Source: Vicinamibacteria bacterium (GTDB lineage Bacteria; Acidobacteriota; Vicinamibacteria; Marinacidobacterales; Marinacidobacteraceae). From it: DNA of 64,000 bases. Under the pieces are notes generated by a model. That model ran no database searches and had not been told where the DNA came from. It saw only the letters and a list, made by a program, of their open reading frames with translations. The DNA lies in NCBI GenBank assembly GCA_964291235.2, contig OZ219815.1:992001-1056000 (forward strand), given 5' to 3'. Positions within the stretch are counted from its first letter, which is position 1, and each line of letters opens with the position of its first letter. The position numbers and the translations under genes were made by a program. Positions 10,231 through 58,658 of this stretch are shown here, piece after piece.

Positions 10231-10435
10231 TTAACAGCCTGTGGTGAAACGCACGTGAGCACCGAGACGAGTGAGGCCCAGTTCTCCCGGTGGGGGTCCG
10301 GCTGACAAGGCGCGTGAGGGAGGAATACCGGGTGTATTCCGACCGAAACGCAACGATGAGCGCCTCGCAGAGGCGCGGTTCAGTCGGGATGGATCGCTCG
10401 TCGAATGCCGCGTGGGTTTTGCCACAGGCTGTTAA
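10231..10435. mobile_element. MITE-like non-autonomous element, copy 1 (one +18-bp insert)
   Basis: TTAA-CAGCCTGTGGTGAAAC...GTTTTGCCACAGGCTG-TTAA: 16-bp imperfect TIRs and TTAA duplication. Homologous to 17542-17800 and 58472-58658, in opposite orientation. Confidence 0.9.
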
Positions 10436-10462
10436 CCCCGCTCAACGGCCCACGGGTCGTGT

Positions 10463-10897
10463 TCAGTGCGCGTGGGTTCCGCCGGTACAGTGGTCGAGAG
10501 TTTCCTTCATGATGGCGGCGTCCACCGGCATCTCTATCGTCTCGTCTTCGAATCTCAGCGCCAGGTCGCCGCCAGCGAGGAGGAAGTCCACGAACCATTC
10601 CTCCGGCTCGAACTGGAAGACCCCGGGGAAGGGCCGGTCCTCCGTCTTTTCGATGCTCCGGGTCTCCCCACCGTCGATCTGCACGTAGAGCGTCCGGGTC
10701 TGGCGCCCGGCCGGGCTGGAATCTTCATGGGGAACGTGCACCGTCAGGAGAATCTCGTCCGACTCCTCACTGCACTGGACCAGGACCCCCGTGTGGTCCC
10801 GGACGACGAATTCGGCTCCGTGCACTCCCATGTACTCGAAGCCCTTCCACTCCACGGCGTTCGGGAGCGCGAGGAACATCACTAGCAGGCTGGTCAT
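10463..10897 (-). CDS. Hypothetical secreted protein
   Basis: GGAAGGTGA upstream of ATG 10897, hydrophobic N-terminus MTSLLVMFLALPNA and protein-like composition. Confidence 0.65.
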   Translation of the reverse strand: MTSLLVMFLALPNAVEWKGFEYMGVHGAEFVVRDHTGVLVQCSEESDEILLTVHVPHEDSSPAGRQTRTLYVQIDGGETRSIEKTEDRPFPGVFQFEPEEWFVDFLLAGGDLALRFEDETIEMPVDAAIMKETLDHCTGGTHAH

Positions 10898-11073
10898 TGG
10901 ATCACCTTCCGTCGGCCTGTCCGGCGGATTGACGTCCCGGAAGATCCGGAACGGCAACTTGAGGAATCCGCCCCACCACCGGAGGCGTTCCGCCAGCCGA
11001 CGTCCTTGGGTCGGAGGATATCGGGCTTGAGCGCCGGCCGCGACCGCGAGGTGCGTAGAATCGGGGGCCCGTC

Positions 11074-13002
11074 ATGACCAACGTGATCGATACCTCCCGA
11101 ATGTCGGCTGGCAAGCGAGCGGCTTTCGAACTGACCGAGGCGGCGCGGGAGACGGGATGGCGTTACCCCACGTTCGCCGGAGGGCTCTTCCTCGGCCAGT
11201 TGTCTGCCGGGATCGTGCGGCCCTACCCGGACAGCGGGGTGGAGCCGGAAGGGGAGGCGTTCCTCAAGCGCCTCGAGGCGTACCTCCTCGATGCGGTGGA
11301 TGCTGACGAGATCGACAGGACGGGAGAGATCCCGGAGCAGGTGCTTCAGGATCTCGTGGCGATGGGCGCGTTCGGGATCAAGATCCCGAAGCGCTACGGC
11401 GGCCTCGGGTTGTCGCAGCGGACCTACACCCGATCCGCGATCCTGCTCGGCAGCCATTGCGGGAACCTCGCCTCCCTGATCTCCGCCCATCAATCCATCG
11501 GGATCGCGCAGCCGATCTTGATGTTCGGCACCGAGGACCAGAAGCAGGAATTCCTGCCCCAGGTGGCGGCCGGGGACATTTCGGCGTTTGCGTTGACGGA
11601 GAACACCGTCGGCTCGGACGCCGCCCGGATGCGGGCGCACGCGGAGCCGACGCCGGACGGCAAGCACTTCATCCTGAACGGCGAGAAACTCTGGTGCACG
11701 AACGGCACCAAGGCCCGTTGGCTGGTGGTCATGGCCCGTACTCCCGCCCAAGAGCCGGGAGGGCGGGCAGGAATCACCACGTTCATCGTGGATACGCGCT
11801 GGCCTGGCGTCGAAGTGGTCCGGCGTTGCCGGTTCATGGGGCTCAAGGCGCTCTACAACGGCGTCATGCGCTTTAGCGACGTGCGGATCCCCCGGGCCAA
11901 CGTGCTGGGGCCCGTGGGAAAGGGCCTGCGGGTCGCGCTCACCACCCTGAACACCGGCCGCCTCACGCTTCCCGGGATCTGCATCGGGACGGCCAAGCGG
12001 TCGCTCTACATCTCCCGGACCTGGGCGCGCGAGCGGGTGCAGTGGGGAGCCCCGATCGGAGAGCACGCGGCGATCGCCGACAAGATCGGACGCATGGCGG
12101 CGACCACCTTCGCCATGGATGCGATGTCCGACCTCACCTCTCTGCTCGTGGACATTGGAGGGGCGGACATCCGGATCGAAGCCGCGATCTCCAAGATGTA
12201 TGCGAGCGAGGCGGCGTGGCGGATCGCCGATGACACCGTCCAGGTGCTGGGAGGCCGCGGCTACGAGACCGCGGACTCGCTTGGCGCTCGCGGCGAACGG
12301 CCCTTCCCGGCCGAGCGGACGCTCCGCGACAACCGGATCAACACGATCTTCGAGGGATCGAGCGAGATCCTGCGCCTCTTCATCGCCCGCGAAGTGCTCG
12401 ACCCGCACCTGAGCCGGGCGGGCGCCGTGATGAACCCGTCGCTCCCGATCACGCAACGCGTCGCTGCGGCCTTCCGCGCGGGCCTGTTCTATGTCCCCTG
12501 GTACCTGAAGCAGTGGCTTCCGGCCGCGGCGCCGGCGGGCGGCGAACCCTGGGCGCGGCGCCACCTGCGTTTCGTGGCGCAGAGCAGCCGCCGGCTCGCC
12601 CGGAGTCTCTTCCACGCGATGCTGCGTCATGGGCCGGGGCTCGAGAAGCGTCAGATGCTCCTGTGGCGGTTCGTGGACTTCGGAGCGGAGCTCTATGCGC
12701 AGGTGGCGACGGTGGTGCGGGCGGAAGCGCTCCTTGCCCGGGGTTCGCGCCCCGAGGACGTATTGCCGCTGGTGGAGAACTTCTGCGCGGGCTCCCGCGG
12801 CCGGATTGACGAACTGAGGCGGGCCATCCGGCGGAATCAGGACGGGCAGACCTACGCACTCGCCCAGGACTTCCTGAAAGACGGCTTCCCCACGCTTCTC
12901 GACGGACGGGTTCCGAACCCCTATGACCCGCCGGCGCCGGCGGAATCCTTGCTGGAAACCCCGGCTGACGAGCCGGTCACCAGGTCTCCGGTCTCCGTTT
13001 GA
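11074..13002 (+). CDS. Acyl-CoA dehydrogenase (very-long-chain/ACADVL-like)
   Basis: AFALTENTVGSDA, LNGEKLWCTNG, QVLGGRGY, RDNRINTIFEGSSEI and a C-terminal extension. Confidence 0.92.
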   Translation: MTNVIDTSRMSAGKRAAFELTEAARETGWRYPTFAGGLFLGQLSAGIVRPYPDSGVEPEGEAFLKRLEAYLLDAVDADEIDRTGEIPEQVLQDLVAMGAFGIKIPKRYGGLGLSQRTYTRSAILLGSHCGNLASLISAHQSIGIAQPILMFGTEDQKQEFLPQVAAGDISAFALTENTVGSDAARMRAHAEPTPDGKHFILNGEKLWCTNGTKARWLVVMARTPAQEPGGRAGITTFIVDTRWPGVEVVRRCRFMGLKALYNGVMRFSDVRIPRANVLGPVGKGLRVALTTLNTGRLTLPGICIGTAKRSLYISRTWARERVQWGAPIGEHAAIADKIGRMAATTFAMDAMSDLTSLLVDIGGADIRIEAAISKMYASEAAWRIADDTVQVLGGRGYETADSLGARGERPFPAERTLRDNRINTIFEGSSEILRLFIAREVLDPHLSRAGAVMNPSLPITQRVAAAFRAGLFYVPWYLKQWLPAAAPAGGEPWARRHLRFVAQSSRRLARSLFHAMLRHGPGLEKRQMLLWRFVDFGAELYAQVATVVRAEALLARGSRPEDVLPLVENFCAGSRGRIDELRRAIRRNQDGQTYALAQDFLKDGFPTLLDGRVPNPYDPPAPAESLLETPADEPVTRSPVSV

Positions 13003-13961
13003 GGGTCGGGCTCCTCTCGCTGCTGGCGGCGGCGCTGCTCACCGGCGCCTGCGACGCCGACCCTGGTCCGCGGGCCGTACCCCGGGCCGTCTGGCTGGAC
13101 GTGGATCCGGCCGTCATGCCCGGGGGGCACGAGCCCGACGACGGCGTCGCGATGGTCCAGGCGTTTCATTCGCCGGAACTGCGGGTGACGGGCGTCAGCG
13201 TGGTCTTCGGGAACGCCCCCGTCGAGCGCGGCTATCCGATTGCCCGGGAGATTGCGGCGCGCTTCGGACCGGCGGGTCTCGAGGTGCACCGGGGGAGCGC
13301 CGCACCGTCTCCGGATCCCACCCCCGCCTCCCGGGCCCTGATCGCGGCGCTTGAGGAAGAAGCGCAGACCATCCTGGCGCTGGGGCCGGCGACCAACGTC
13401 GCCGCCGCCCTTCGGGAACGGCCCGACCTGGCCGAGCGCATCGAGACGGTCATCCTGGTGATCGGCCGTCGTCCTGGAGAACCGCTGACTTTCCCGGGGG
13501 GCGGCCCCAACCTCCTCGACTTCAATTTCGAACTGGATCCGGCCGCCGCGGAGATGGTGCTGGAGAGCGGGGCCCCGATCGTCCTGGCGCCTTTCGAATT
13601 GGCGGCCAAGCTTCCTATCCCGGCCGAGGATTGGACCGGACTGTGGGACACCCCGTTCGGGGCGTTCTTTCGCGAGCCGATCGAGGACTATCTCGACTGG
13701 TTCGGCGAGAACTACGGCCGTCGCGCCACCTATCCGTTCGACTCGTTTGCCGTTTCCTTCCTGGTGGCGCCCGAGTTCCTGGATTGTGACCGGACCACGG
13801 TGGTCGTTCGGGACGGCCCCGCGGACGGCTATTCGGACACCACGGAGACGAAACCCTGGCTCGTGCGGGTTGATTCAGGCGGGGGGTGGCCCGTTACCTG
13901 GTGCCACACGCCGCTCCCGGAATTGAAGGGGGAACTCCTCCGGCGGCTGGCGGGCGCCTGA
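12999..13961 (+). CDS. Nucleoside hydrolase (IUNH family), lipoprotein
   Basis: DVD....DD aspartate motif, VFGN, LGPATN and DFNFELDP. Lipobox-like LTGAC. Confidence 0.85.
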   Translation: MRVGLLSLLAAALLTGACDADPGPRAVPRAVWLDVDPAVMPGGHEPDDGVAMVQAFHSPELRVTGVSVVFGNAPVERGYPIAREIAARFGPAGLEVHRGSAAPSPDPTPASRALIAALEEEAQTILALGPATNVAAALRERPDLAERIETVILVIGRRPGEPLTFPGGGPNLLDFNFELDPAAAEMVLESGAPIVLAPFELAAKLPIPAEDWTGLWDTPFGAFFREPIEDYLDWFGENYGRRATYPFDSFAVSFLVAPEFLDCDRTTVVVRDGPADGYSDTTETKPWLVRVDSGGGWPVTWCHTPLPELKGELLRRLAGA

Positions 13962-14023
13962 GGGCGGCGAATCCCCCCGCCCGCCGTCCTTGGAGACTGC
14001 TAATCTTCCGCGTTCCGCTGGGA

Positions 14024-14100
14024 GCGCCTGTAGCTCAGTGGATTAGAGCGCTTGCCTCCGGAGCAAGAAGTCAGAGGTTCGAGTCCTCTCAGGCGTACCA
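14024..14100 (+). tRNA. tRNA-Arg (CCG)
   Basis: GCGCCTG acceptor, TAGCTCAGTGGATTAGAGC D-arm, CTTGC-CTCCGGA-GCAAG anticodon arm, GGTTCGAGTCC and encoded CCA. Confidence 0.97.
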
Positions 14101-14118
14101 GCGTAGTCGTATCGGGTT

Positions 14119-14195
<77 letters not shown>

Positions 14196-14207
14196 CCCGA
14201 TGCGCCC

Positions 14208-15686
14208 ATGACCGACGCCGCGCCCTTCCGGGCTGCTCCCGAATCACGGTGGACCGGGTCCGCGTACCATCGTCGGGCGGCCGGACCATCGGAAACGGCC
14301 GTTCCCGTCGCCGCCTTGCAGGAAGTCCTCTCCGCCACCCGTTCCCCTGGTGATGCCGGCGAGGGCGGCGCCCGATCCGGCGGTGTTCCGGCGACCCGAG
14401 AAACGGGGGCGCTGCGGCGGATCCTGATTCGCTCCCCGGAAATCCGCATCAAGGGCAGGAACCGGCCTTCCTTCCGGGAAGCGCTCAAACGCAACCTGGG
14501 CCAGCGGCTCCGCGGCATCGGCCTGCGCTGGCGGGCGAGTTCCGCCGGCGACCGGGTGTGGCTCGAGGTTCCTCGTGAGGAAGTTGGGGATCTGGACCGG
14601 GCCCTCGAAGTGATCGCGACCGTCTTTGGTGTCGAACTGGCCCTCCCGGCGTTCGCGATCCTCCGTTCTCCGGACAAGGAGCCGCTGCCCGCGCCACTCC
14701 TGGTGGACCAGGTGACGGCGCTCTGCTGTGAACTGGCAGCGGAAGCTTGCGAGGGGTCCGGCAAGGGCTTTGCGCTGCGCGTGCGGCGCCGCGACCGGAA
14801 GTTCCCGATCCGCTCCCAGGTGGTTGCCGAGACGGTGGGGAGCGCCATCCTCGATCGCACCGCGTGGGACCGGGTTGACCTCTCGAACCCGGCCCTCACC
14901 ATCTTCATCGAGCCGCACGAGGAAGCTGTTTACGTCTGGACGCGACGCGTTCGGGGACCTGGCGGGCTTCCCGTCGGGATCGCGGGGCGCCTGGTCGGGA
15001 TGCTCTCCGGCGGCTTCGACTCCCCGGTGGCGGCCTGGATGATGGCCGGACGGGGAGCCGCTCTCGACTTCGTCCATCTGACCCCGTCCCGCCCCGACCC
15101 GTCCTCCCCCGCCGCCGACAAGGCCGCCGAACTGGTCCGGATCCTGTCGCGCTACACGGGGCGGTCGCGACTCGTACTGATCCCCTACACCCATTTCGAC
15201 CTGCGGCTCACCGGGAGCCGGACCGGCCACGAGGCGGTCCTGTTCCGGCGATTCGCCTTTCGCTGCGGCGAGGCGGTGGCCAGAAGGTTCGAGGCGGCGG
15301 CCCTGACCACCGGCGACAGCCTCTCGCAGGTCGCGTCGCAGACACTCGAGAACCTGATCAGCGTGGACGCCGCGGTGACCCTCCCCGTCCTCCGCCCCCT
15401 CGTCGGGTTCGACAAGGTCGCGATCATGGACCGGGCCGAGAAGATCGGCACCTGGAAGACCTCGGCGATCCCGGCGAAAGACTGCTGCGCGTTGATCGCG
15501 GGGTCGCCCCGCACCCGTTCCGAACCCGGGCGGATCGCCCGCCTCGAGGACCGGCTGTTTCCGGACCCTGCCGAAGTCGTCAGGCTGTCCCTCAAGGAAT
15601 CCGTCGTCGGCGCGTTTCAGGGCGGCGAGCAGATCGAGGCGTTTGCCCCGGCAGGCGACCGGTTCGTCCCGGCCGGCGGCGATTAA
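14208..15686 (+). CDS. thiI: tRNA 4-thiouridine synthase ThiI (THUMP + PP-loop, no rhodanese domain)
   Basis: EIRIKGRNR, THUMP region, GPGGLPVG, MLSGGFDSPVA, TGDSLSQVASQTLENL, RPLVGFDK and DCC. Start uncertain. Confidence 0.9.
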   Translation: MTDAAPFRAAPESRWTGSAYHRRAAGPSETAVPVAALQEVLSATRSPGDAGEGGARSGGVPATRETGALRRILIRSPEIRIKGRNRPSFREALKRNLGQRLRGIGLRWRASSAGDRVWLEVPREEVGDLDRALEVIATVFGVELALPAFAILRSPDKEPLPAPLLVDQVTALCCELAAEACEGSGKGFALRVRRRDRKFPIRSQVVAETVGSAILDRTAWDRVDLSNPALTIFIEPHEEAVYVWTRRVRGPGGLPVGIAGRLVGMLSGGFDSPVAAWMMAGRGAALDFVHLTPSRPDPSSPAADKAAELVRILSRYTGRSRLVLIPYTHFDLRLTGSRTGHEAVLFRRFAFRCGEAVARRFEAAALTTGDSLSQVASQTLENLISVDAAVTLPVLRPLVGFDKVAIMDRAEKIGTWKTSAIPAKDCCALIAGSPRTRSEPGRIARLEDRLFPDPAEVVRLSLKESVVGAFQGGEQIEAFAPAGDRFVPAGGD

Positions 15687-15793
15687 GCGGCCTCGGGGGG
15701 CGTGCTCCCCGGTTCCGCTCGGCTTTGCACTCGCCGCAGCAGCCGCGTAGCATGAATTTTGCTTGCCTGAGGTTCCATAGCGAAGCGTCAACC

Positions 15794-16336
15794 ATGCCCG
15801 ATTCTTCGGCGCACTCGCGCCACCCGGCTCTTCTGCCTTCACTCGCGGCGGCACTGATCCTGGGAGCTGCATCCTCCATCGTCGCGGCGGCGGTCGAGGG
15901 CGTTGCGGACACCCCTGCGAAGCCGTATGCGGTGTTCGTTGCCTATCCTGGTGAGGTGGACGCCCAGCTCGGCGCGCATCTCCACAACGCCGCCGGCGCG
16001 CTGGGGACGGCGCTGGCCGATCGCCCGGAGTGGTTCCGGCTGACGGAATCGCGTGACGAGGCGAACATCCGGGTGACCGTCTTCGATGCGCAGGCCGCCA
16101 CCGGCGAGTTGCGGTTCGTGGGCGGCCCGGCCGGGTTCACTGCGAACCGCGTCTTCGCATCACGGGGACGCGACGTCTTTTCCTTCGACGCCATTGTGCG
16201 GGTAAACGGAAAGCGGAAGCAGGTGAACGGTTCGGGTACCGGAGCCACGGGAATGGACAGCCTCAAGGACGCCGCCGCCGACTTCGTCAGGAAGCTCGAG
16301 GAATTCACGGAAGAAAGCTACCCGGCTCCGCGCTGA
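15794..16336 (+). CDS. Hypothetical secreted protein, paralog 1 of 3
   Basis: Signal-like N-terminus. Shares PYAVFV, WFRL...A.I and SLKDAA...LEEF...Y motifs with the next two ORFs. Confidence 0.7.
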   Translation: MPDSSAHSRHPALLPSLAAALILGAASSIVAAAVEGVADTPAKPYAVFVAYPGEVDAQLGAHLHNAAGALGTALADRPEWFRLTESRDEANIRVTVFDAQAATGELRFVGGPAGFTANRVFASRGRDVFSFDAIVRVNGKRKQVNGSGTGATGMDSLKDAAADFVRKLEEFTEESYPAPR

Positions 16337-16338
16337 CG

Positions 16339-16902
16339 ATGTCGCGCCGCCAATTCGGTATCCGCACCCGGACCGCGCTTCTCGCGCTCTTCGCCCTGGC
16401 GGCGACGGTGGTCTTCGCGGGTGGGCAGGAAAAGGCGCCCCGGCGCCCGCCGGAGCCGTTTCGGGTCTTCGTGTACGCCATCGAAACGGCGGATGCCGGC
16501 CTCAAGGCGCAGCTCGACGAGGCGCTGCCGATGGTCCGGGAACGGGTAGCGGGGCGGCGGAAATGGTTCCAACTGGCCGCGTCCGCCGACGCGGCGGACA
16601 TCACGATCCGCATCGTCAGCTACCGGACTGGAGAGCTTCGGGATCACCCAAACCGGAGGACCGGTGGGATGATTCCGGGGATGTTGACTGCCGAGCCCTC
16701 CGACTGCCGGGAATACCATTTCGTTGATGCGGTCGTTCGCAGGGGAGGGGTGAGCACGCAGCTCTCCGGGCTCGACGCCGGCGCCATCGGGGGCGCCGGC
16801 CTGGGCAGAGCCGCCGGCCAGCTCGCAAAGGAGCTGGAGCGCTTCGCGAAGGACAACTACGGCGCCCTCAGCCAGCACCGCGCGCGGGCTCGGACGCAGT
16901 AA
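16339..16902 (+). CDS. Hypothetical secreted protein, paralog 2 of 3
   Basis: Signal peptide; APRRPPEPFRVFVYA, WFQL, YHFVDAV and LERFAKDNY. Confidence 0.8.
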   Translation: MSRRQFGIRTRTALLALFALAATVVFAGGQEKAPRRPPEPFRVFVYAIETADAGLKAQLDEALPMVRERVAGRRKWFQLAASADAADITIRIVSYRTGELRDHPNRRTGGMIPGMLTAEPSDCREYHFVDAVVRRGGVSTQLSGLDAGAIGGAGLGRAAGQLAKELERFAKDNYGALSQHRARARTQ

Positions 16903-17014
16903 GCCGCAAGCGGCGCGCCCACCCGGTGCCGCTGCATTCCGTCCACTGCCCGGCGTGCGATGATTCCCGGGCGAGCGGCCCTGGGTCCGGCTTTGCGCAC
17001 CACGGGGAGTCATC

Positions 17015-17539
17015 ATGACCATCCACCACATTCCGCGTCCGCGACCGGCGGCGCTCGTCGGGCTGCTGCTCCTGGCGGCGTTTGCCGCCGCGGAGCAAGC
17101 GCCCCGGCGCCCGCCCGAGCCCTTTGCCGTCTTCGTGTACGCGAGTGATCCGGAGGATGCGGACCTGAAGGAGGGGCTTGCCAAGGCGAGCGAGGAAATC
17201 CGGGACCGGGTCCGCGGACGGCGGAATTGGTTTCGCGTCGTCGATTCCGCTGAGGATGCGGCCATCACCCTGCGCGTCATCAACTACCGAACATCGCAGA
17301 TGATGCTTCCGAAACTCGAGAGACTGTTCATCAACGGCCGGGTCGAACTGGTCGAGCGCAGCGAGATCATCGAGTTCCACTACGTGGATGCGGTTGCGCT
17401 CGGCGGGTCGGCGCGAGGAAACCTGACCGGGCTGGACGAGCGCGAGAGCGGGCCCAGCCTGCGCAATGCCGCCAGCCACCTGGCCGAACAACTGGAGGAG
17501 TTTTGCAAGGACAACTACGCGGCTCTGACCAGCCAGTAG
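17015..17539 (+). CDS. Hypothetical secreted protein, paralog 3 of 3
   Basis: GGGGAG RBS and signal peptide; APRRPPEPFAVFVYA, WFRV, FHYVDAV and LEEFCKDNY. Confidence 0.8.
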   Translation: MTIHHIPRPRPAALVGLLLLAAFAAAEQAPRRPPEPFAVFVYASDPEDADLKEGLAKASEEIRDRVRGRRNWFRVVDSAEDAAITLRVINYRTSQMMLPKLERLFINGRVELVERSEIIEFHYVDAVALGGSARGNLTGLDERESGPSLRNAASHLAEQLEEFCKDNYAALTSQ

Positions 17540-17541
17540 GC

Positions 17542-17800
17542 TCAACAGCCTGTGGCAAAACCCACGCGGCCCAGTTCTCCCGGTGGGGGCTCGAGCGGCG
17601 ATCCGTCCCGGCTGAACCGCACCTCTCCGAGGCGCTCATCGTTGCGTTTCGGTCGAAATACACCCGGTATTCCTCCCTCACGCGCCGCCCCCACCGGGAG
17701 AACTGGGTCAGCCGGGCCCCCACCGGGAGAACTGGCCCCACCGGGAGAACTGGGCCTCACCGCTCTCTGCGCTCACGCGGGTTTCACCACAGGCTGCTAA
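17542..17800. mobile_element. MITE-like element, copy 2 (four +18-bp inserts, mismatched flanks)
   Basis: TCAA-CAGCCTGTGGCAAAAC...GTTTCACCACAGGCTG-CTAA. Inserted units at 17571-17590, 17687-17706, 17716-17735 and 17736-17753. Confidence 0.9.
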
Positions 17801-17902
17801 GGCGGCGTTCGTTCGCCGCGATCCTCTCTACTTACCGCCCTCGTCTTCGGACTGGCCGGGTCCGGGTGTGCGCCACCGCCGGAGAATCCCCGGGCGAAGA
17901 AC

Positions 17903-20003: not shown

Positions 20004-20015
20004 CCTTGAGCAGAT

Positions 20016-22759: not shown

Positions 22760-22804
22760 CGACTCAAGAGCGAGTGCGGTCCTGGAAGGGTGGAGAAATC
22801 TCCC

Positions 22805-46930: not shown

Positions 46931-46976
46931 CGATCTCCGGCGTCGGGAGGCGCCGGGTAGTAGGCTGTATCGCTTC

Positions 46977-48017: not shown

Positions 48018-48036
48018 AACCGGCGCCCGGAGGCTG

Positions 48037-49062: not shown

Positions 49063-49107
49063 GATCAGACCTCGGATTCTAGTGTGGCCGGCGAGACGAG
49101 GAGGGCA

Positions 49108-53000: not shown

Positions 53001-53510
53001 GGACGCGGTGAGTTGCGCGGCGATTCCCGCCGGCGAGGCGTCCATGCCCTGCCGAACCCGGATTTCCGCCTGGCGGAGACGGTCGGGTGCGGCAGTCCGG
53101 CAGAGCGCCCCGGCGGCCGAAGCGATGACGAGCGGCGGAACCTCGGGCGCCGCGCCGGCAAGCGCCGACAGGGCGGTGGCGCGCAGGGCCACCACCTCGG
53201 CGTGGGGAGCAACTTCCGCGTATGGATTCACCGCGGGACCGGGGAGGCGCAGAACCGGACGCGTTGCGCCGAGGGCCGCCAGGAGTACTTCGAGGTCGGC
53301 GGCGCTCGTGAGGAGGTCCTGGTTGTTCGCGGTCAGGAAGACCAGGGGTTTGGGGGATTCGCGCGCCCAGGCCGCCACCACCGCCAATCGGGCCGGGCCG
53401 AAAAGCCGCCCGATCCGGCGGACCCCGGCCGCCCGGCGCGTCCGGATGGCCGCGAGGAGGGTTTCGAAGCCCGGGGGTTCCTCCGTCACCCCCGAAAGGT
53501 CAGCGCTCAC
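50091..53510 (-). CDS. mfd: Transcription-repair coupling factor
   Basis: RID (VVHTDHGVG), GDVGFGKTEVA, IVDEEQRFG, TATPIPRT, QIRGRVGRS, DMELRGAGNLLG and TRCF domain. Confidence 0.96.
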   Translation of the reverse strand: MSADLSGVTEEPPGFETLLAAIRTRRAAGVRRIGRLFGPARLAVVAAWARESPKPLVFLTANNQDLLTSAADLEVLLAALGATRPVLRLPGPAVNPYAEVAPHAEVVALRATALSALAGAAPEVPPLVIASAAGALCRTAAPDRLRQAEIRVRQGMDASPAGIAAQLTASGYRYEDPVSGPGDFARRGGIVDFFPVNRDLPVRVEFGFEGIEGIREFEVETQRGGDHLAQPEAVAAPPSWEWIAADLEQGPHPAFRVPGSPGFESGIGDYLEGAELLLDEPDRFWEAAEAETARVVDARLAAKEFRARAAAPPEALLIGLEDLRRRLEEPPPHGAVELRELETSAPDAADNRDLPARPTDSFRNRTGEFLEVLRQPGDPRRSVHVFVPGTGAAERFATRAREAGARIQDSGEAPGIPAPDATPGALPAAPRVFVHAGRLSAGFEVPDLHLQVISGAAMVAAPPRAPRRRSGSGSFLSDFRDLKPGDPVVHTDHGVGRFVRMTRLGEGESAPELVEIHYAKGGKLFLPVDRLDLLEKYTAGSAAGAPPLDRLGGTSWIRRRKRVAKAMRDIAGELIRLYAERRRVAGYAFSRDIPGMEEFEDTFEWTETDDQARAIRDVFEDMEADAPMDRLLAGDVGFGKTEVALRAAFKAAMDGKQVAVLVPTTVLAAQHARVFEQRFAPFPIRVALLSRFRTPKRQKEVVAGIRNGTVDIVIGTHRLLSKDVGFRDLGLLIVDEEQRFGVSAKERLKAMAPQVDHLAMTATPIPRTLNMSLSGIRDMSVIETAPRDRMAIQTHVLPFEAERIAEAIRHELAREGQVYFVHNRVRSLPAMEKLLHNLVPEARILIAHGQMREATLERTLIRFQDHEADILLTTTIIENGIDLPRVNTLLVNRADAFGLAQLYQIRGRVGRSSRRAYAYLLVPQGAPLSGTAQPRLAALREFSELGAGFRIAALDMELRGAGNLLGAAQHGHLEAVGFDLYYRLLEEAVAEARGDRPRSRCTMNLRFQFRIPGRWLEDVRRRMWLYKRCSSAADLDTLDRLRDEVRDRFGALPAEVELLFQHVRLRIRAEALGYTAVSREGDSLRFESESKDRSFRSPLAPGAGPAEVLGSLQMALSALEAVALSREGNAPEDRRVNPS

Positions 53511-54019
53511 CGGGGTCGTTCTTCCGCGGGGTCGGCGTCGTTTGTCAGTTCGAGGACCAGGCGAACGGCCTCGGCGGGCGAATCGGCGGCGACGGCTCCG
53601 GGCACGTTCCACCCTCCGGGAGGCTGCAGGACGGTGACCACCGGCTTGCCCAGCGTTTTCGCCATGGCGGCTTCGGAGAGGGTGCCGCTGGCCCCCGGCA
53701 GCGCGATGACGCCGTCCGCGGCCCGGACGACCAGAAAGTTGCGGAAGTGGCCGAGTCCGGTCGGAATGGCGCAGGTCACCCAGCGGTTCGCCTCCCGCCG
53801 GTCCTCTCCCGGGAGAATCCCGACCGTCAGGCCCCCCGCCCCCTGAGCGCCCCGGCAGGCGGCTTCCATCACGCCCCCGAGGCCGCCGCAGACCAGGCTC
53901 GCCCCGGCGAGAGCCAGCGCGCTTCCCACCGCTTCCGCCGCGCGAAGAGCCTCGGGAGCGGCCTCGGATCCCCCGATCACCGCGATCTGGCGGGCGAACG
54001 GACTCAGGCGGCGGCTCAC
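53507..54019 (-). CDS. TIGR00725 family (LOG-like) protein
   Basis: IAVIGG, VCGGLGGVMEAACRGA, GLGHFRN and GTLSE. Stop overlaps the mfd start. Confidence 0.88.
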   Translation of the reverse strand: MSRRLSPFARQIAVIGGSEAAPEALRAAEAVGSALALAGASLVCGGLGGVMEAACRGAQGAGGLTVGILPGEDRREANRWVTCAIPTGLGHFRNFLVVRAADGVIALPGASGTLSEAAMAKTLGKPVVTVLQPPGGWNVPGAVAADSPAEAVRLVLELTNDADPAEERPR

Positions 54020-54092
54020 GATCTTTCCTCTGCTCCGGAAGGCGCCCGATCCTAACCGCGATCCCGCGGACCGCGCATCGCCCGACGAACGC

Positions 54093-54158
54093 CCAGGAGC
54101 GCCCGCCCAGGAGCGCCAGCCAGGAGCGCCAGCCAGGAGCGCCAGCCAGGAGCGCCAG
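54093..54158 (+). repeat. Tandem 13-bp repeat CCAGGAGCGCCAG (4 exact + 1 degenerate copy)
   Basis: Exact copies at 54107, 54120, 54133 and 54146. The last copy is the start of the REP-like palindrome. Confidence 0.9.
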
Positions 54159-54395
54159 CCTCCGGCTGGCATCGCCGAGCAAAGCGAGGCGAAACTCCCA
54201 AACCCGTTCGCTCCCCACGGCCCGGACCCAGTCGGTGACGCGAAGACCTCCAATCTGCGAGAGGATGGCGCAGCGCTGCGTGTGCGGCGGTGTGACGATG
54301 CGCCGTCCCCGTTTGGATGGGTGCGGAGCGGCGGATTAAGGGGGGAGTTTCGCGGCCTGCGGCCGCGATGCCGGCCGGAGGCCGGCGCTCCTGGC
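54145..54395. repeat. REPIN-like doublet of inverted REP-type palindromes
   Basis: 54145-54175 GCCAGGAGCGCCAGCCTCCGGCTGGCATCGC and 54365-54395 are inverted copies (29/31 match). Each contains a 7-bp stem with a 3-nt loop. Confidence 0.75.
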
Positions 54396-54454
54396 CTGGC
54401 GCCATTGCGGTTGCGCCGCCCTGACGGCTCATTTGCTGAGCGCGAACAAGAAAT

Positions 54455-54689
54455 GGCGGCGAACCGCAGGTTCGTCGCCGGCGTGACCGGGGGGTTGGCG
54501 TGGAAGGGGGAACTCCCCCTTCCACAAGAAGGCAACCACGAATCGGAACTCGCCGCAGTGCGCGGCAGCGCACCAGGGAGTTGCGATTCCGGGCACGCAG
54601 TGCCCGGCGGTTGGGGACCGGGGCGCACTTCTGTCGGCCCCGATCTACGTTGCCTACAAGCACTTCGGCGCGCCCCGGTCCCCAACCGC
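54455..54689. other. Highly structured non-coding element (cluster of hairpins)
   Basis: Stems at 54455-54479, 54500-54525, 54540-54589 and 54589-54607, plus a perfect 20-bp inverted repeat 54607-54626/54670-54689. Confidence 0.7.
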
Positions 54690-54720
54690 TCCGGGTCCCT
54701 TGCCTGCTAATCTGCCGTCG

Positions 54721-55824
54721 ATGCCCCCTCGCGCCCGTCCTCCCGTGCGGCGCGCCGAACGGCCGAAGCGTCCGCGCCTCGCCATCGAACGGATCTGGCC
54801 GCGACACGCCATCCCCGGGGGGCGGGTGGACATCAGCGGCCGCGGTTTCGCGGTGGATCAGGCTCTGCGCCTCCGGGTGTTCTTCGGCGATGAGGAAGCG
54901 CACCTGTTCCGCGTGTCTTCGACCCGTCTGGGGGTCCGGGTGCCCGAAGGGGCAGGCGATGACGTTCGCGTGTGCCTCAACGATCGGGAAACGGAGCCTC
55001 ATGGCGTCACCATCGGCCGCCTGTTCGCCGAGGACCTCCACATCGTGGCGAATCCGGTGTACGACCCGCGGGGCAATCTGTATTCGACGGTCAGCGGCCG
55101 GCGCGGCGAAAAGGTCCCTCATCCCATCTACCGATTGAGCGACGACGGCGATCCCGAGCCGATGGGCGAGGGCATCGTGAATCCCACCGGCCTGGCGTGG
55201 GGACCCGACGACACGCTGTATGTGTCCTCCCGCGAGGACGGGTGCGTCTATCGGATGGATGACGACGGCGAGTTCCAGGTTCTCGCCGAGGATCTCGGCT
55301 GCGCGACCGGGCTCGGGTTCTCTCCGACGGGCGACCTGGTGATCGGCGACCGCGACGGGACCCTGTACCGGGTTGACAGCGAAAACGACGTGAGCGTGTT
55401 CTCCCATCTGCGGGCCTCGGTCTCCGCCTATCACCTGGCCTTCAATTCGTCCGGTTACCTGTTCGTCTCCGGGCCCACCCTCTCCTCGCGCGACCAGATC
55501 GTCGAGTTTCGCCCGGACGGAGCGCCGTGCCGGGTGCATTCGGGCTTTGGCCGGCCCCAGGGCATCGCGTTCGATGACCGCGACCGCTGTTTCGTGGCCG
55601 AGGGGCTCGCCGGCGACGCCGGTCTCTTCCTTTTTACTCCGACCGGAGCGCGGCGGGTGATCGCTGCGCCGCCGCTCGTGGGGGTGGCCCTCAACGCGGA
55701 CCGCACGCTGGCGGTTGCGACCTCCGACGCCATCTATGAATTCGATCTGGATTCACCTTTTCTGCGCGGGTTCGCAGACGAGGAACCGGAGGACCGGGCA
55801 TGGAGCGAAGGACGAACCCAGTGA
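54721..55824 (+). CDS. IPT/TIG domain plus SMP-30/NHL-type beta-propeller protein
   Basis: N-terminal IERIWP...PGG.V.ISG.GF Ig-like segment, followed by repeated PTGLA/ATGLG/PQGIAFD blades. Confidence 0.75.
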   Translation: MPPRARPPVRRAERPKRPRLAIERIWPRHAIPGGRVDISGRGFAVDQALRLRVFFGDEEAHLFRVSSTRLGVRVPEGAGDDVRVCLNDRETEPHGVTIGRLFAEDLHIVANPVYDPRGNLYSTVSGRRGEKVPHPIYRLSDDGDPEPMGEGIVNPTGLAWGPDDTLYVSSREDGCVYRMDDDGEFQVLAEDLGCATGLGFSPTGDLVIGDRDGTLYRVDSENDVSVFSHLRASVSAYHLAFNSSGYLFVSGPTLSSRDQIVEFRPDGAPCRVHSGFGRPQGIAFDDRDRCFVAEGLAGDAGLFLFTPTGARRVIAAPPLVGVALNADRTLAVATSDAIYEFDLDSPFLRGFADEEPEDRAWSEGRTQ

Positions 55825-57338
55825 TGCGGCGGTCAGCCGGAGCGGGCCTGCTGGCCGCGGGGCTGGCTCTGGCCGCGCCCGCGGCCGCACAGGACCTTCG
55901 CACCACCGTCGAGGGCCACGTGGACGAAAACCAGCAGGCGCTGGTGGCCGAGCTGGTCGAGGCGGTCTCCATCCCGTCGGTTGCCGCCGATACGCAGAAC
56001 ATCCGGAGGAAAGCGGAGTTTCTGGAGGCCGCGCTCGAGCGCCGCGGTTTCGCGGCCGAGCTTCTCGAGACCGACGGCAATCCGCTGGTCTTCGGCGAGC
56101 GCGCGGCCCCCGATGCGGAGCGCACGCTGCTCATCTATTTCCACTACGACGGCCAACCGGTGGACCCGGCCCGTTGGCAACAGGACGATCCGTTCGAACC
56201 GATTCTGCGTGAGGGCAGTCTTGCCGACGGCGCCGGACGCCTCGACCTCGGCGCCAGCGAGGTGTTCCGGCCCGACGACCGCATCTATGCGCGCTCCGTC
56301 GCCGACGACACCGCGCCGATCATCGCCTTCCTCGGCGCTCTGGACGCGCTCGATGCAGCGGCGGTAGCGGTCACCAGCAACCTGAAGGTGATCCTCGACG
56401 GCGAGGAGGAGGCCGGTTCGCCGAACCTGGTCCCCGCGATCGCCCGCTACGGAAGCCGGTTCGCCGCCGATTCGATGCTGATTCTGGACGGCCCGCTCCA
56501 CCAGAGCGGCCGGCCGACGGTCAGCTTCGGCGCCCGGGGGATCCTGACCCTGGAACTCGTCGTGTACGGGCCGCGCGTCCCGCTCCATAGCGGCCACTAC
56601 GGCAACTGGGCTCCGAATCCGGCGGTTCGCCTGGCGCAGCTCATCGCCTCGATGAAGGATGAGGGCGGCCGGGTCACGATCCCCGGGTTCTACGACGGCA
56701 TCGACTTCAGCTCCGAAGAGCGGCGCGCGCTGGCGGCAGTGCCGGACGATCTGCCGGCGCTGATGCAGTCGCTCGGGTTCGCGGAGGCCGATCGGGTGGG
56801 CGATTCGCTGCAGGAAGCGATCCAGTTCCCGTCTCTCAATGTGCGTGGGTTGTCGAGCGCGTGGGTGGGCGGCGATGCCCGCACCATCGTGCCGGCCACC
56901 GCGACGGCCGCTATCGACGTGCGGCTGGTGGCGGAAACACCCGCCGACGCGATGTTCGACAAGGTCCGCGACTTCATCGAGGGACAGGGCTGGTTCCTTC
57001 TGGATCGGGATCCGACCGACGCCGAGCGGCAGGAGCATGGCCGGCTCCTGCGCCTGACCCGCAGCGCCGGCACCAATGCCTTCCGGACCCCGCTCGACCA
57101 TCCGGTGGCGGCGCGGCTCATCGGGAGCCTCACCGAGATCTGGGGAGAGGAGCCGGTCCGGAAGCGGACGAGCGGCGGGACGGTGCCCATCGCCCCGTTT
57201 GTGGAGGCGCTCGGCGTTCCGGCGCTGATGGTTCCCACCGTGAACCACGACAACAACCAGCACAGCCCGAACGAGAACCTGCGCCTGGGGCACTTCTTTC
57301 GCTCCATCGTCAGCTTCGCCGCGATCCTCACGATGTGA
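55824..57338 (+). CDS. M20/M25/M40 family metallo-hydrolase with signal peptide
   Basis: YFHYDGQP, YARSVADD, DGEEEAGS, LHSGHYGN and NNQHSPNENL. Confidence 0.9.
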   Translation: MRRSAGAGLLAAGLALAAPAAAQDLRTTVEGHVDENQQALVAELVEAVSIPSVAADTQNIRRKAEFLEAALERRGFAAELLETDGNPLVFGERAAPDAERTLLIYFHYDGQPVDPARWQQDDPFEPILREGSLADGAGRLDLGASEVFRPDDRIYARSVADDTAPIIAFLGALDALDAAAVAVTSNLKVILDGEEEAGSPNLVPAIARYGSRFAADSMLILDGPLHQSGRPTVSFGARGILTLELVVYGPRVPLHSGHYGNWAPNPAVRLAQLIASMKDEGGRVTIPGFYDGIDFSSEERRALAAVPDDLPALMQSLGFAEADRVGDSLQEAIQFPSLNVRGLSSAWVGGDARTIVPATATAAIDVRLVAETPADAMFDKVRDFIEGQGWFLLDRDPTDAERQEHGRLLRLTRSAGTNAFRTPLDHPVAARLIGSLTEIWGEEPVRKRTSGGTVPIAPFVEALGVPALMVPTVNHDNNQHSPNENLRLGHFFRSIVSFAAILTM

Positions 57339-57365
57339 CCGCCCGGCGGTAGTGCGCGTAAGCGG

Positions 57366-58475
57366 ATGACGGCCGGCCGCTCCTCCGGCGGGGAACCGAT
57401 TCCCCGAGGACTCCAGACGCCGGGGCCTACCCCGCTCCATCCCGAAGTAGCGGCGGCGATGGCCCAGCCGCTGATCTCCTACCGCGGGCCGGAGGCGCGG
57501 GCGTTGCTTCGCCGCATTGCCGAAGGGTTTTGCGAGTACCTCGGGACCGAGAGGCCGCCCGTATTGCTCACCGCGTCGGGAACGGGCGCCATGGAGGCGA
57601 CCGTCGCCAATCTGCTCTCCCCTGGCGATCCGGTGCTCGGAATCGGGGGCGGCCAGTTCGCGGAACGCTTCCTGGGCGTGGCGGAGGCCTTCGGGCTCGA
57701 TACCCGCAGCCTCGACACCCCGTGGGGCGAGGCTGCCGCACCGGAACGCCTCCGGGTAGCGCTCCGGGCCCACCCCGAGACGCGGGCGGTGCTGCTCACC
57801 CACTGTGAGACTTCCACGGGAGTGCTGCACCCGCTTCCCGAGCTGATCCGGGTCGTCCGCGAGGAGGGGGAGGCGCTGGTGCTGGTGGACGCCGTGTCCA
57901 GCCTGGGCGCGGTGCCACTCGCGCTCGATTCCTGCGACGCGGCCTTCACCGCCTCCCAAAAAGCGTGGGGGTTACCTCCCGGAATGGCCATGGTCTGGAC
58001 CTCCGGGCGCGCCGAGGCGGCGGAGCGGAAAGCCACGCTGCCCCGCTTCTACTGGAGCTTTTCCCGCTATCGGGAGTCGCTGGTCCGGGGCTCGGCGCCG
58101 TTCACCCCGGCGGTTCCGGTGCTGTTCGCGATGGAGGCCGGCCTCCGCCTGATGCTCCGCGAAGGACGCGAGGCGGTCGTCCGCCGTCACGCCGCCGCGG
58201 CGGCGGCTGCCCGCACCCGTTTGCAGAAGATGGGACTCCTCCTCGTCGCGGGCGACCAGACGGCGTCCAACACGGTCACCGCCGCCTGGCTGCCGGCGGG
58301 CGTCGCCTGGCCCGATCTCGCGCGGGACCTCCGGGAACGCCACGGCGTCGTCCTCGCGGGAGGCCTGGGACGCCTCGCCGGGAAGATCCTCCGCCTCGGC
58401 CACCTCGGCTGGACCACCGAGCGGGATGTCCACCGCGCCGCCGACGCCCTGGAGTCCTGCCTGCGCGGCACCTAG
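57366..58475 (+). CDS. Class V aminotransferase (serine-pyruvate/alanine-glyoxylate type)
   Basis: TPGP, SGTGAME, HCETSTG, VDAVSS, SQKAWGLPPG and RLGHLG. The stop TAG lies within the MITE CTAG flank. Confidence 0.92.
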   Translation: MTAGRSSGGEPIPRGLQTPGPTPLHPEVAAAMAQPLISYRGPEARALLRRIAEGFCEYLGTERPPVLLTASGTGAMEATVANLLSPGDPVLGIGGGQFAERFLGVAEAFGLDTRSLDTPWGEAAAPERLRVALRAHPETRAVLLTHCETSTGVLHPLPELIRVVREEGEALVLVDAVSSLGAVPLALDSCDAAFTASQKAWGLPPGMAMVWTSGRAEAAERKATLPRFYWSFSRYRESLVRGSAPFTPAVPVLFAMEAGLRLMLREGREAVVRRHAAAAAAARTRLQKMGLLLVAGDQTASNTVTAAWLPAGVAWPDLARDLRERHGVVLAGGLGRLAGKILRLGHLGWTTERDVHRAADALESCLRGT

Positions 58476-58658
58476 CAGCCTGTGGCAAAACCCCCGCGGC
58501 GTTCGACCGGCGATGCATCCCGGCTGAGCCACTCCGCTTCGCTTCGTTCTGCGTTGCGTTTCGGTCGAAATACACCCGGTATTCCTCCCTCACGCGCCTT
58601 GTCAGCCGGGCGCCTCACCCGTCTCGGCGCTCGCGCGGGTTTCACCACAGGCTGCTAG
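58472..58658. mobile_element. MITE-like element, copy 3 (no inserts, 179-bp core)
   Basis: CTAG-CAGCCTGTGGCAAAAC...GTTTCACCACAGGCTG-CTAG. Interior aligns with the other two copies. Confidence 0.9.

What the first reader, a model, noticed from the sequence alone, without database searches (positions are those of the whole stretch)
10231..58658. MITE family carrying a mobile +18-bp micro-insertion at several sites and in both orientations
Seen: three homologous elements (58472-58658, 10231-10435, 17542-17800) share TIRs CAGCCTGTGG(TG/CA)AAAC and measure 187, 205 and 259 bp, i.e. +0, +18 and +72. The length difference is explained by one unit. At three separate internal sites, 2 nt of the empty copy are replaced by the 20-mer CCAGTTCTCCCGGTGGGGG(C/T): CGCGGC[gt]TCGA, CTGAC[aa]GGCGC and GAGGC[gc]CCGGC. 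One site holds a tandem pair and one insert is inverted relative to the others. Simple slippage cannot place the same 20-mer at non-adjacent sites in opposite orientations, and I did not see the full unit elsewhere in the window. The core also has cGNAg-type triloop hairpins (GCGCCTC-GCA-GAGGCGC at 10360-10376) and a GGAATAC/GTATTCC stem. Established: YTAR duplications (TTAA, CTAG) occur in IS5-like elements, and GNA triloops stabilise ssDNA hairpins. Inference: a frame-preserving 18-nt element is written into this MITE by a templated process (RT-, HUH/RAYT- or recombinase-mediated), a parasite of a parasite or a recording-like system I cannot match to a named family.
Basis: partly seen in the sequence, partly recalled or inferred. 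Interest (0 to 1): 0.82.

Follow-up and report, generated by a model that had tools for sequence, protein, structure and literature searches.

The report
Tiny 18-base repeat nested inside transposons
An 18-base DNA word has been copied into fixed spots of a small transposon and of other hairpin repeats in marine sponge-type Acidobacteria, making it one of the smallest apparently mobile DNA units seen in bacteria, and a larger insertion sequence uses it as its landing site.

Summary
The window holds three copies of one foldback MITE, with cores of 179, 197 and 251 nt. They differ only by 0, 1 and 4 exact copies of CCAGTTCTCCCGGTGGGG ("U"), at three sites and in two orientations.

Genome-wide, U has 83 exact copies. 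Of 53 full MITE cores, 24 carry U at seven fixed sites, giving lengths of 179+18n. U also sits beside hairpins of other repeat families.

- **Insertion signature:** the net gain is +18. At MITE sites and REP-A, filled copies read U+GC where empty copies have two other bases. No empty copy carries that scar, so simple deletion from a long ancestor is excluded.
- **Turnover:** the five closest MITE pairs all differ in U content.
- **Distribution:** U is exact in 18 of 31 related genomes, all in one family, at 0 to 1288 copies.
- **Enzymes:** reverse transcriptase is missing from most U-rich genomes and RAYT from several. No IS5 or IS630 transposase is in this genome.
- **New here:** an IS110-family element sits inside U in three species, and its bridge-RNA-like leader matches U.

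Best reading (0.55): a very small dispersed repeat, like cyanobacterial SDRs, inserted by an unidentified activity. Main rival (0.3): a few old insertions spread by conversion and MITE amplification. It is non-coding, and nothing suggests recording.

The parts
58476..58654 (+). MITE copy, 179 nt, empty (no unit). It lies directly after a TAG stop codon, flanked by ctag/ctag.
   Evidence: folds as a foldback hairpin, z = -3.8
10235..10431 (-). MITE copy, 197 nt, with one unit at consensus site 136
10278..10295 (+). Unit U (CCAGTTCTCCCGGTGGGG), followed by GT. It lies between gaggc and (gt)ccggctgac.
17546..17796 (+). MITE copy, 251 nt, with four units (sites 25, 125 and 136 x2). It is absent from the orthologous spot in most same-genus genomes.
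17571..17588 (+). Unit U at site 25. U+GC stands where empty copies have GT.
17689..17706 (-). Unit U at site 125. GC+U(rc) stands where empty copies have TT.
17718..17753 (-). Tandem pair of U at site 136 (17718-17735 and 17736-17753). In the predicted fold U at site 25 forms a long perfect stem with a site-136 unit.

Best explanation
U is a very small dispersed repeat. Its core is 18 nt, and in practice it is the 20-mer CCAGTTCTCCCGGTGGGGG(C/T) standing in place of 2 target bases. It is a separate entity from its hosts.

It has been copied, without target duplication, into a limited set of preferred places. The left flank is usually GG(C/G), and the sites usually lie at the edge of GC-rich helices. 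The hosts are:
(a) a TA-duplicating foldback MITE, with seven sites in this genome and at least ten in the lineage, orientation almost always fixed per site;
(b) REP-like hairpin repeats.

Once in place it travels with its host. It can be hit again at its own GGGG|GC end, which gives tandem pairs. Direct U copies recombine and delete what lies between them, which gives mini-MITEs. It also serves as the programmed landing site of an IS110-family element.

Shown: the anatomy, the flank signature, the spread over contexts and genomes, and the IS110 relation.
Inferred: that U is (or recently was) inserted on its own, by a sequence-specific trans-acting activity that I could not identify. Whether copies change in situ or only in MITE master copies is not shown.
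For: **Filled versus empty.** Of 53 near-complete MITE cores, 29 are empty and 24 hold 1-4 units. Lengths are 179+18n. This is also true in other species.

**Sites in this genome.** 25+, 41+, 51-, 60-, 125-, 136- (x1 or x2) and 145+. In other species also 104+, 67- and 145-.

**Flank signature.**
- Site 25: 8 of 9 filled copies have C at +2, against 0 of 47 empty copies.
- Site 125: 8 of 8 filled copies have GC, against 0 of 48 empty copies.
- The same T-to-C link at site 25 holds in other species.
- Flank logo: GG(C/G)-U-G(C>T).

**Turnover.** The five closest core pairs (3-4 differences in 179) all differ in U content. Fill states are scattered on the core tree, across both TIR subfamilies.

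**Conservation.** U copies in MITEs are far more uniform than their hosts: 43 of 51 are exact, 1.6% against 12.6% per-site divergence.

**Other hosts.**
- REP-A: 173 empty copies (GTTCC). Of 12 with U there, 4 are IS110 junctions and 5 read U+GCTCC.
- REP-B: 143 empty copies (those listed read GCTCC), 5 filled (U+GTTCC).
- 121 copies fall into 42 flank clusters.

**All-or-none.** There are no truncated copies; the mismatch distribution is bimodal.

**Lineage.** Exact U occurs in 18 of 31 genomes, 17 of 18 in the family beyond this one and 0 of 12 outside it. Counts are 0 in closed G017, 6 in G009 and 1288 in G013. The reversed control gives 0 everywhere. U is present in assemblies from many projects.

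**IS110.** Five identical copies here, and copies in G004 (75% identical), lie between CCCC and ACCGGG of U. The G014 copy (85%) shows the same junctions. The leader carries GAGCCCC (= left flank plus core) and CGGUGG (= reverse complement of CC+ACCG). In G004 the guide AGGCCCC covaries with the flank AGGCCCCC. This is read by the LTG/RTG rule of PMC11208160, section 7.
Against: - No enzyme was found. RT is absent here and in most U-rich genomes. RAYT is absent from G013, G004 and G018. TnpB, IS5 and IS630 transposases are absent here. The IS110 was not found by DNA search in G008 and G018, which are U-rich.
- Sites and orientations are fixed, and the flank scar is perfectly linked to U. One founding event per site, spread by gene conversion or by amplification of variant MITE masters, would give the same picture.
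- The four-unit long form recurs in other species and in another genus at 79-89% identity, so some filled states are old.
- No orthologous locus with different U states was found. The MITE is simply absent at the two loci checked.
- Public contigs break at the MITE, so no alleles could be read.
- U has no fold of its own (z from -0.1 to +1.1) and no strand bias. It therefore gives no handle on a mechanism.
- The uniformity test detects only copies with up to 4 changes, and core divergence includes subfamily structure.
- The +2 base is not constant: C in most copies, but T in REP-B and in 5 copies at site 136.
Confidence: 0.55

Rival explanations
1. Passive passenger. A few ancient insertions (about one per site) put U into a MITE master and into REP-like repeats. 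Everything since is MITE transposition of variant masters, homologous gene conversion or recombination among copies, and foldback template switching that mirrors a unit onto the other arm. There is no U-specific mobility today.
For: - Sites and orientation are fixed, and the flanking GC is perfectly linked to U.
- Long forms with the same sites are shared across species and with another genus.
- The U count follows MITE abundance and fill fraction: in a 400-kb sample of G013, 118 of 158 copies lie in MITEs.
- U copies do recombine. Mini-MITEs of 74-80 nt join the left flank of site 25 to the right flank of site 145, and forms of 113, 167 and 185 nt join sites 60 and 125.
- Sites 41+/136- and 25+/145- lie roughly opposite each other in the foldback.
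- No enzyme candidate was found.
Against: - It still needs a dozen or more founding insertions of the same word into unrelated contexts, all with the same flank signature.
- It does not explain why an 18-mer stays exact across genera while its hosts diverge.
- Closed genomes of one genus hold many MITE matches but only 6 exact U (G009), against 1288 (G013).
- U occurs at site 25 in both TIR subfamilies, whose sequence differs a few bases upstream, so conversion tracts would have to be very short.
Confidence: 0.3
2. One reading: U is written in by a reverse transcriptase or by a RAYT/HUH enzyme from a template locus.
For: - A 2-nt target loss with a fixed-length insert would fit target-primed reverse transcription (established for R2-type elements; recalled, not tested).
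- One RAYT-like gene exists in this genome.
- U often sits at hairpin edges.
Against: - RVT_1 gives 0 matches here and in 15 of 18 genomes of the family.
- RAYT was not found in G013, G004 and G018, by family model and by protein.
- The RAYT-like gene is flanked by arrays of a 120-bp repeat with no U within 1.5 kb.
- There are no 5'-truncated copies, no strand bias relative to GC skew, and U has no hairpin of its own.
Confidence: 0.05
3. U is spread by the IS110-family element itself, for example by off-target or half-site bridge recombination that leaves or carries target sequence.
For: - The IS sits in U in three species, and its leader matches U.
- Half-match recombination and single-strand excision are reported for IS621. 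I saw only the abstract of 10.64898/2026.08.31.748434.
Against: - The guides cover only about 8 nt of U plus 3 flank bases, not the other 10 nt.
- The IS ends (CC)TATAGG... and ...GGAAAGT(CC) match the donor-loop guides, so U is target and not an element end.
- The IS was not found by DNA search in G008 (525 U) or G018 (220 U).
- Bridge recombination as described restores or joins sites; it does not create an 18-nt insert.
Confidence: 0.05
4. All shorter copies derive from one long ancestral MITE by deletion of units. Alternatively, the 20-mer is an assembly or adapter artefact.
For: Sites are fixed. Long forms are widespread.
Against: - Empty copies never carry the GC scar that an 18-nt deletion would leave: 0 of 47 and 0 of 48.
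- U lies outside the MITE too.
- Site 104+ is common in other species but occurs in 0 of 56 copies here.
- Exact U is found in 18 of 31 genomes, in assemblies from many projects and technologies, with a reversed control of 0. U-like letters also occur in contigs of independent public runs (table 5c).
Confidence: 0.03

Closest known systems
Small dispersed repeats (SDR1-8) of Nostoc and relatives (Elhai et al. 2008, Genome Res 18:1484). The paper is not held. I saw only its citation and one-sentence summaries in PMC3116915, PMC5861425 and PMC2884548. Details below are recalled from its abstract.
   Same: - Word-sized repeats (21-27 nt there, 18-20 here), dispersed in high copy number.
- Confined to one coherent lineage.
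- Found embedded in miniature transposons and other repeats, and next to or inside copies of themselves.
- Filled versus empty comparisons suggest recent mobility.
- No enzyme is known.
   Different: - Different phylum (Acidobacteriota, class Vicinamibacteria) and, as far as I can tell without the SDR sequences, an unrelated sequence.
- U has no stem-loop of its own, whereas SDR4-6 were said to share one.
- U shows a defined 20-for-2 flank signature and a GG(C/G) left flank.
- U is the programmed target of an IS110 element.
REP/BIME/REPIN elements with RAYT
   Same: - Short extragenic repeats combined into mosaics.
- Occasional inverted pairs.
- Used as landing sites by IS110/IS1111-family elements (PMC1525189 and PMC12288879, abstracts seen).
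   Different: - U is not palindromic.
- U does not flank the RAYT-like gene.
- U is abundant in genomes where no RAYT was found.
- The true REP-like repeats of this genome (hairpins GCCGGCC-TGGA/GGA-GGCCGGC) are hosts of U, not U itself.
IS621 / IS110-family bridge-RNA recombination (PMC11208160, passages of sections 6-10 read)
   Same: For the IS that sits in U:
- a DEDD_Tnp_IS110 domain;
- a core dinucleotide on both sides;
- a roughly 250-nt leader with a left-guide-like stretch identical to the top strand of the left target, and a right-guide-like stretch complementary to core plus right target;
- matching donor guides.
   Different: - The core is CC rather than CT.
- No covariance model or experiment supports the fold, and Rfam has no match.
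- This concerns the user of U, not the origin of U.
ERIC and Correia-type bacterial MITEs with internal length variants, and Neisseria dRS3/NIME mosaics (recalled, not checked in a paper)
   Same: - Foldback, TA-flanked, non-coding, multi-copy elements with discrete length classes.
- A 20-bp repeat (dRS3) that bounds mosaic repeats and is an integration target.
   Different: Here the length classes are multiples of one 18-nt word, at many sites and in both orientations, and the same word occurs in unrelated repeat families.

Membership tests
Bacterial MITE (host element) | Terminal inverted repeats, small size, no coding capacity, many copies | tested here: met
   73 merged nhmmer hits and 56 near-full copies in this genome. 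The ends pair in a foldback. No Pfam-supported frame crosses it.
Bacterial MITE (host element) | Target-site duplication and presence/absence at orthologous loci | tested here: met
   TA is present on both sides in 31 of 48 copies. The copies at window 17546 and 10235 are absent from the same spot in most same-genus genomes.
Bacterial MITE (host element) | A full-length parent element with the same ends and a transposase | tested here: not met
   No DDE_Tnp_1 (IS5-type) or DDE_3 (IS630-type) match in this genome, which is 90% complete. Other genomes were not searched for a parent.
   13 of 48 copies have identical 4-mers. The inner base is complementary, as for an inverted repeat, in 40 of 48. 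This fits TA duplication.
Cyanobacterial SDR-type very small mobile repeats | About 20-nt dispersed repeat, lineage-restricted, nested in MITEs and other repeats, with filled and empty paralogues | tested here: met
Cyanobacterial SDR-type very small mobile repeats | Conserved stem-loop with compensatory changes (as recalled for SDR4-6) | tested here: not met
   U alone and with flanks folds no better than shuffles. Variants are too few to test covariation.
Cyanobacterial SDR-type very small mobile repeats | Sequence relationship to SDR1-8 | not testable with these tools
   The paper and its sequences are not held.
REP/REPIN-RAYT system (for U) | Palindromic unit; RAYT gene flanked by the repeat; RAYT present where the repeat is abundant | tested here: not met
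RT-templated insertion (retron, DGR, retroelement) | A reverse transcriptase gene in the genome | tested here: not met
   0 RVT_1 matches here. 15 of 18 genomes of the family have none.
IS110 family with bridge RNA (the IS inside U) | DEDD transposase, no inverted ends or duplication, the same core dinucleotide on both sides, site-specific target | tested here: met
IS110 family with bridge RNA (the IS inside U) | Leader RNA with two loops whose guides match target and donor | tested here: inconclusive
   Guide-like stretches match, and one covaries with the flank between species. There are only three IS lineages, and the fold z is -1.4. There is no Rfam model and no experiment.

The most novel reading that the evidence does not exclude
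U is a self-propagating 20-nt DNA module with a dedicated, still unknown insertion activity that cuts at GG(C/G)^NN beside stable helices. It would be the smallest mobile DNA in bacteria outside cyanobacteria. It forms the middle tier of a three-level nesting: an IS110 element lands in U, and U lands in MITEs and REP-like repeats. By seeding itself into harmless repeats, U would multiply safe landing pads for the bridge-RNA element. Closed genomes of one family hold 0 to 1288 copies, so the responsible gene should be findable by presence/absence comparison.
Probability: 0.3. Interest if true: 0.85.

Novelty: new variant of a known kind. Interest (0 to 1): 0.62.

Why it matters
Word-sized mobile repeats have so far been described, to my knowledge, only in cyanobacteria (SDRs), and their mechanism has stayed open since 2008.

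This is a second, cleaner case in another phylum:
- one exact word;
- a defined insertion signature (net +18, two target bases replaced);
- defined hosts;
- closed genomes of one family that range from none to more than a thousand copies.

That range makes the question 'what moves a 20-nt sequence?' approachable by comparative genomics. The case also gives a natural example of a bridge-RNA IS110 element whose target is itself a proliferating repeat. Finally, it shows how MITE length classes, mini-MITEs and mosaic repeats can arise from one small module.

If the passive-passenger rival is right, the finding is an ordinary though tidy case of repeat evolution.

Tried and rejected
- **Reads.** The best public holders are kept only as short contigs, which break at the MITE. 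No contig bridges either MITE from unique flank to unique flank. The joints inside 17590-17770 come from other MITE copies. A low-depth joint 10207>10465 is of unknown content. So there is no information on empty versus filled alleles at these loci.
- **Orthologous loci.** Relatives are only about 80% identical in flanking genes. They lack the MITE at both loci, or carry something else: G006 has a different element with MITE-like ends, and G009 has REP-like hairpins. U states therefore cannot be compared.
- **Rfam on the IS110 locus:** no match.
- **Strand bias of U relative to GC skew:** none.
- **Intrinsic fold of U:** none.
- **Coding test:** 16 open frames with U in their interior. Pfam domains lie on one side only or are absent.
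- **Other abundant 16-mers** were checked for a second micro-element. The only other candidate is a 32-bp tandem array, not a dispersed unit.
- **U as an end or deletion derivative of the IS110** was considered and rejected, because the donor-loop guides match the IS ends proper.
- **Other mechanisms** were weighed by reasoning only: serine-recombinase or IS607-type insertion with a GG core, footprints of Tc1/IS630-type excision, DNA-uptake sequences, Chi sites and CRISPR repeats. None reproduces a net +18 insertion of a non-palindromic word with two bases replaced.
- **Literature.** Searches found no description of this unit or of this MITE. The Elhai 2008 paper could not be read. Supplements were not consulted.
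- **Earlier scan notes.** They describe the MITE family in three other genomes and do not mention the unit.

Full report
**1.
Searches show the three elements at the stated coordinates, and one search aligns them. Apart from point differences they differ only by copies of CCAGTTCTCCCGGTGGGG (U):
- none in 58476-58654 (179 nt);
- one in 10235-10431 (197 nt);
- four in 17546-17796 (251 nt), one of them inverted relative to the other three and two in tandem.

The window has exactly these five copies, all exact, against 0.01 expected.

**2. Where the window comes from.**
It lies in a 3.45-Mb, 68% GC genome in two contigs. An exact-match scan of public genomes finds U almost only in MAGs labelled Vicinamibacteria, 'Candidatus Marinacidobacterium' or Acidobacteria, from several projects.

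**3. The host element.**
nhmmer with a profile of empty copies finds 73 merged hits and 56 near-full copies.
- The empty form folds as a foldback hairpin (z = -3.8).
- Only 13 of 48 copies have the same 4-mer on both sides. The inner base behaves as part of the inverted repeat in 40 of 48, and TA is on both sides in 31 of 48. The duplication is therefore most likely TA, not YTAR.
- Earlier notes of this scan on other genomes describe the same family as TA-flanked.
- No IS5-type or IS630-type transposase is in the genome.
- At the orthologous positions of the window copies at 17546 and 10235, most same-genus genomes have the flanking genes adjacent. These are therefore insertions private to this lineage.

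**4. U in the MITE.**
Of 53 copies with a near-complete core, 29 are empty and 24 carry one to four units. Lengths run 179, 197, 215, 233, 251, 269.

Units occupy fixed places with fixed orientation: 25+, 51-, 60-, 125-, 136- (single or tandem) and 145+, plus 41+.

In 110 full copies from other species the same series of lengths appears. These loci were chosen because they hold U, so fill fractions are biased. The same sites recur, together with others that are absent here: 104+ in about 41 copies, and 145- as a 19-nt insert in about 20.

In an unselected 400-kb stretch of the most U-rich genome, G013, 32 of 45 full copies are filled, and 118 of 158 U copies lie in MITEs.

**5. The insertion signature.**
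The net gain is 18 nt, but the two bases after U differ from the empty state.
- Site 25: GT or AT becomes U+GC. 8 of 9 filled copies have C at +2, against 0 of 47 empty copies.
- Site 125: AA becomes U+GC in U orientation. 8 of 8 filled copies have GC, against 0 of 48 empty copies.
- Site 51: TT becomes U+GC. Site 41: AT becomes U+GC. Site 136: GC stays GC or becomes GT.
- Site 104 in other species: TAT becomes G+U+GC, again net +18.
- REP-A: the 173 empty copies read GTTCC. Of the 12 with U there, 4 are IS110 junctions and 5 of the other 8 read U+GCTCC.
- REP-B: 143 empty copies, of which those listed read GCTCC. All 5 filled copies read U+GTTCC.
- Over all copies the flanks are GG(C/G) on the left and G(C>T) on the right.
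- A tandem pair is what a second hit on the GGGG|GC end of a resident unit would give (inference).
- A few contexts inside the REP hairpin give a net +19.

Because no empty copy carries the scar, the short forms are not simple 18-nt deletions of long forms.

**6. Turnover and uniformity.**
- On a core tree the filled states are scattered, in both TIR subfamilies.
- The five closest pairs in the family (3-4 differences in 179 nt) all differ in U content.
- U copies inside MITEs are 43 of 51 exact, 1.6% per-site divergence against 12.6% for the cores of the same copies. Caveats: only copies with up to 4 changes are detected, and core divergence includes subfamily structure.
- Mismatch counts are bimodal (0-3 versus 4 or more), so there are no truncated copies.

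**7. U outside the MITE.**
- Of 121 copies with up to one mismatch, 64 lie outside nhmmer MITE hits. Almost all of these are in other repeats; 7 of 64 have flanks that are unique by BLAST, and some of those still show a REP hairpin.
- The hosts are REP-like families built on the hairpins GCCGGCC-TGGA-GGCCGGC (about 124 copies) and GCCGGCC-GGA-GGCCGGC (about 85 copies). These are the most abundant 16-mers of the genome, with U third.
- The 121 copies fall into 42 flank clusters.
- Some clusters are recombinants. Mini-MITEs of 74-80 nt join the left flank of site 25 to the right flank of site 145. Forms of 113, 167 and 185 nt join sites 60 and 125. This is as expected from deletion between direct U copies (inference).
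- U is not in recognisable coding sequence: 0 of 16 tested frames.
- U has no fold of its own and no strand bias.
- In the 251-nt window copy, U at site 25 pairs perfectly with a U at site 136, lengthening the foldback.

**8. Distribution.**
- Exact U is in 18 of 31 genomes: this one, 17 of 18 others of its family, and 0 of 12 in two sister families. The reversed word occurs nowhere.
- Among assemblies of 1-20 contigs the count runs 0 (G017), 6 (G009), 45 (G014), 83 (this genome), 220 (G018, another genus), 525 (G008), 564 (G001), 631 (G004) and 1288 (G013).
- Fragmented assemblies may under-count.
- G027, flagged unpublished, is one of the out-family zeros. Nothing depends on it.

**9. Enzymes.**
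- RT: none here and none in 15 of 18 genomes of the family, including G013, G004, G008 and G018.
- Y1/RAYT: one gene here (243 aa, E = 1.5e-7). It is flanked by inverted arrays of a 120-bp REP-A repeat, with no U within 1.5 kb. It was not found in G013, G004 and G018, by family model or by protein.
- TnpB: none.

**10. A user of U.**
- Five near-identical (99-100%) IS110-family copies of about 1.55 kb each lie inside a U that sits in a U-filled REP-A copy...GGGAGC-CCCC | TATAGG...IS...GGAAAGT | CC-ACCGGGAGAACTGG-GCCGG... The core is CC.
- Relatives of the IS in G004 (75% identical) split U at the same place, in a different repeat context. The G014 copy (85%) shows the same junctions.
- The 250-nt leader contains GAGCCCC (identical to left flank plus core) and CGGUGG (reverse complement of CC+ACCG), on either side of a small hairpin.
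- A second loop contains GUGGAGAGU and UAUAGG, which match the IS ends.
- In G004 the first guide reads AGGCCCC, and its flanks read AGGCCCCC.
- This is the layout published for IS621 (PMC11208160, section 7). REP-targeting by IS110 relatives is known (abstracts of PMC1525189, PMC12288879 and 10.64898/2026.03.19.712850).
- The guides cover only about 8 nt of U. The IS was not found by DNA search in U-rich G008 and G018. So the IS exploits U rather than spreading it.

**11. Verdict.**
- U is a real, lineage-wide, word-sized repeat with its own insertion history. It is nested in a MITE and in REP-like repeats, and is itself the landing pad of an IS110 element.
- The best comparison is with the cyanobacterial SDRs. 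I could not read that paper; the comparison rests on recall and on citing sentences.
- Whether U still moves by itself (0.55) or is now only carried, converted and recombined (0.3) cannot be settled with these data. The mechanism of the founding insertions is unknown in either case.
- My literature searches found no description of it.

Noticed in passing
G000:C2:869036-870600 and four more copies (L126-L131, L137, L142); outside the window: Five near-identical (99-100%) IS110-family elements with a bridge-RNA-like 250-nt leader. Each is inserted inside a U unit with core CC. Relatives in G014 and G004 target the same word.
   Followed up: yes
G000:C1:15098-18334 (L115); outside the window: A single RAYT-like (Y1_Tnp) gene of 243 aa, flanked on both sides by inverted tandem arrays (3.3 and 5.1 copies) of a 120/121-bp repeat carrying the hairpin GCCGGCCTGGAGGCCGGC. 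This is a classic REP-RAYT layout for the genome's most abundant repeat.
   Followed up: partly
G000:C2:1054342-1054664 and C2:1807642-1807947; also L024 (another species): A second kind of nested insert, about 110-125 nt, at about position 29 of the MITE. It is shared between species and unrelated to U.
   Followed up: no
G000:C1:241015, C2:726494, C2:1053244, C2:2036245: Mini-MITEs of 74-80 nt that consist of the two MITE ends joined through one U. They look like deletions between two direct U copies, and may be a transposing subfamily of their own.
   Followed up: partly
window 58472-58476 and 17538-17546: MITE copies sit directly at or after the stop codon of the upstream gene; the TAG of the target is the stop codon at 58473-58475. 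Stop codons may be the main supply of TA-containing targets in this 68% GC genome. An earlier scan note on another genome says the same.
   Followed up: no
G000:C1:438273 to about 440000: A long tandem array of a 32-bp unit (at least 69 copies of its 16-mer core). It is unrelated to U.
   Followed up: no
window about 14030-14180: Contig depth peaks here in all four runs laid. The loose ends read like a tRNA T-arm (GGTTCGAATCC-type), so a tRNA gene probably lies here. It was not scanned.
   Followed up: no
L124 2060-2360 (G006) and L169 2010-2340 (G009): At the spots orthologous to the window MITEs, G006 holds a different about 200-nt element with MITE-like ends. G009 holds REP-like hairpins (GCCGGC-TTCA-GCCGGC) plus a MITE end fragment. 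These intergenic spots are recurrent targets.
   Followed up: no
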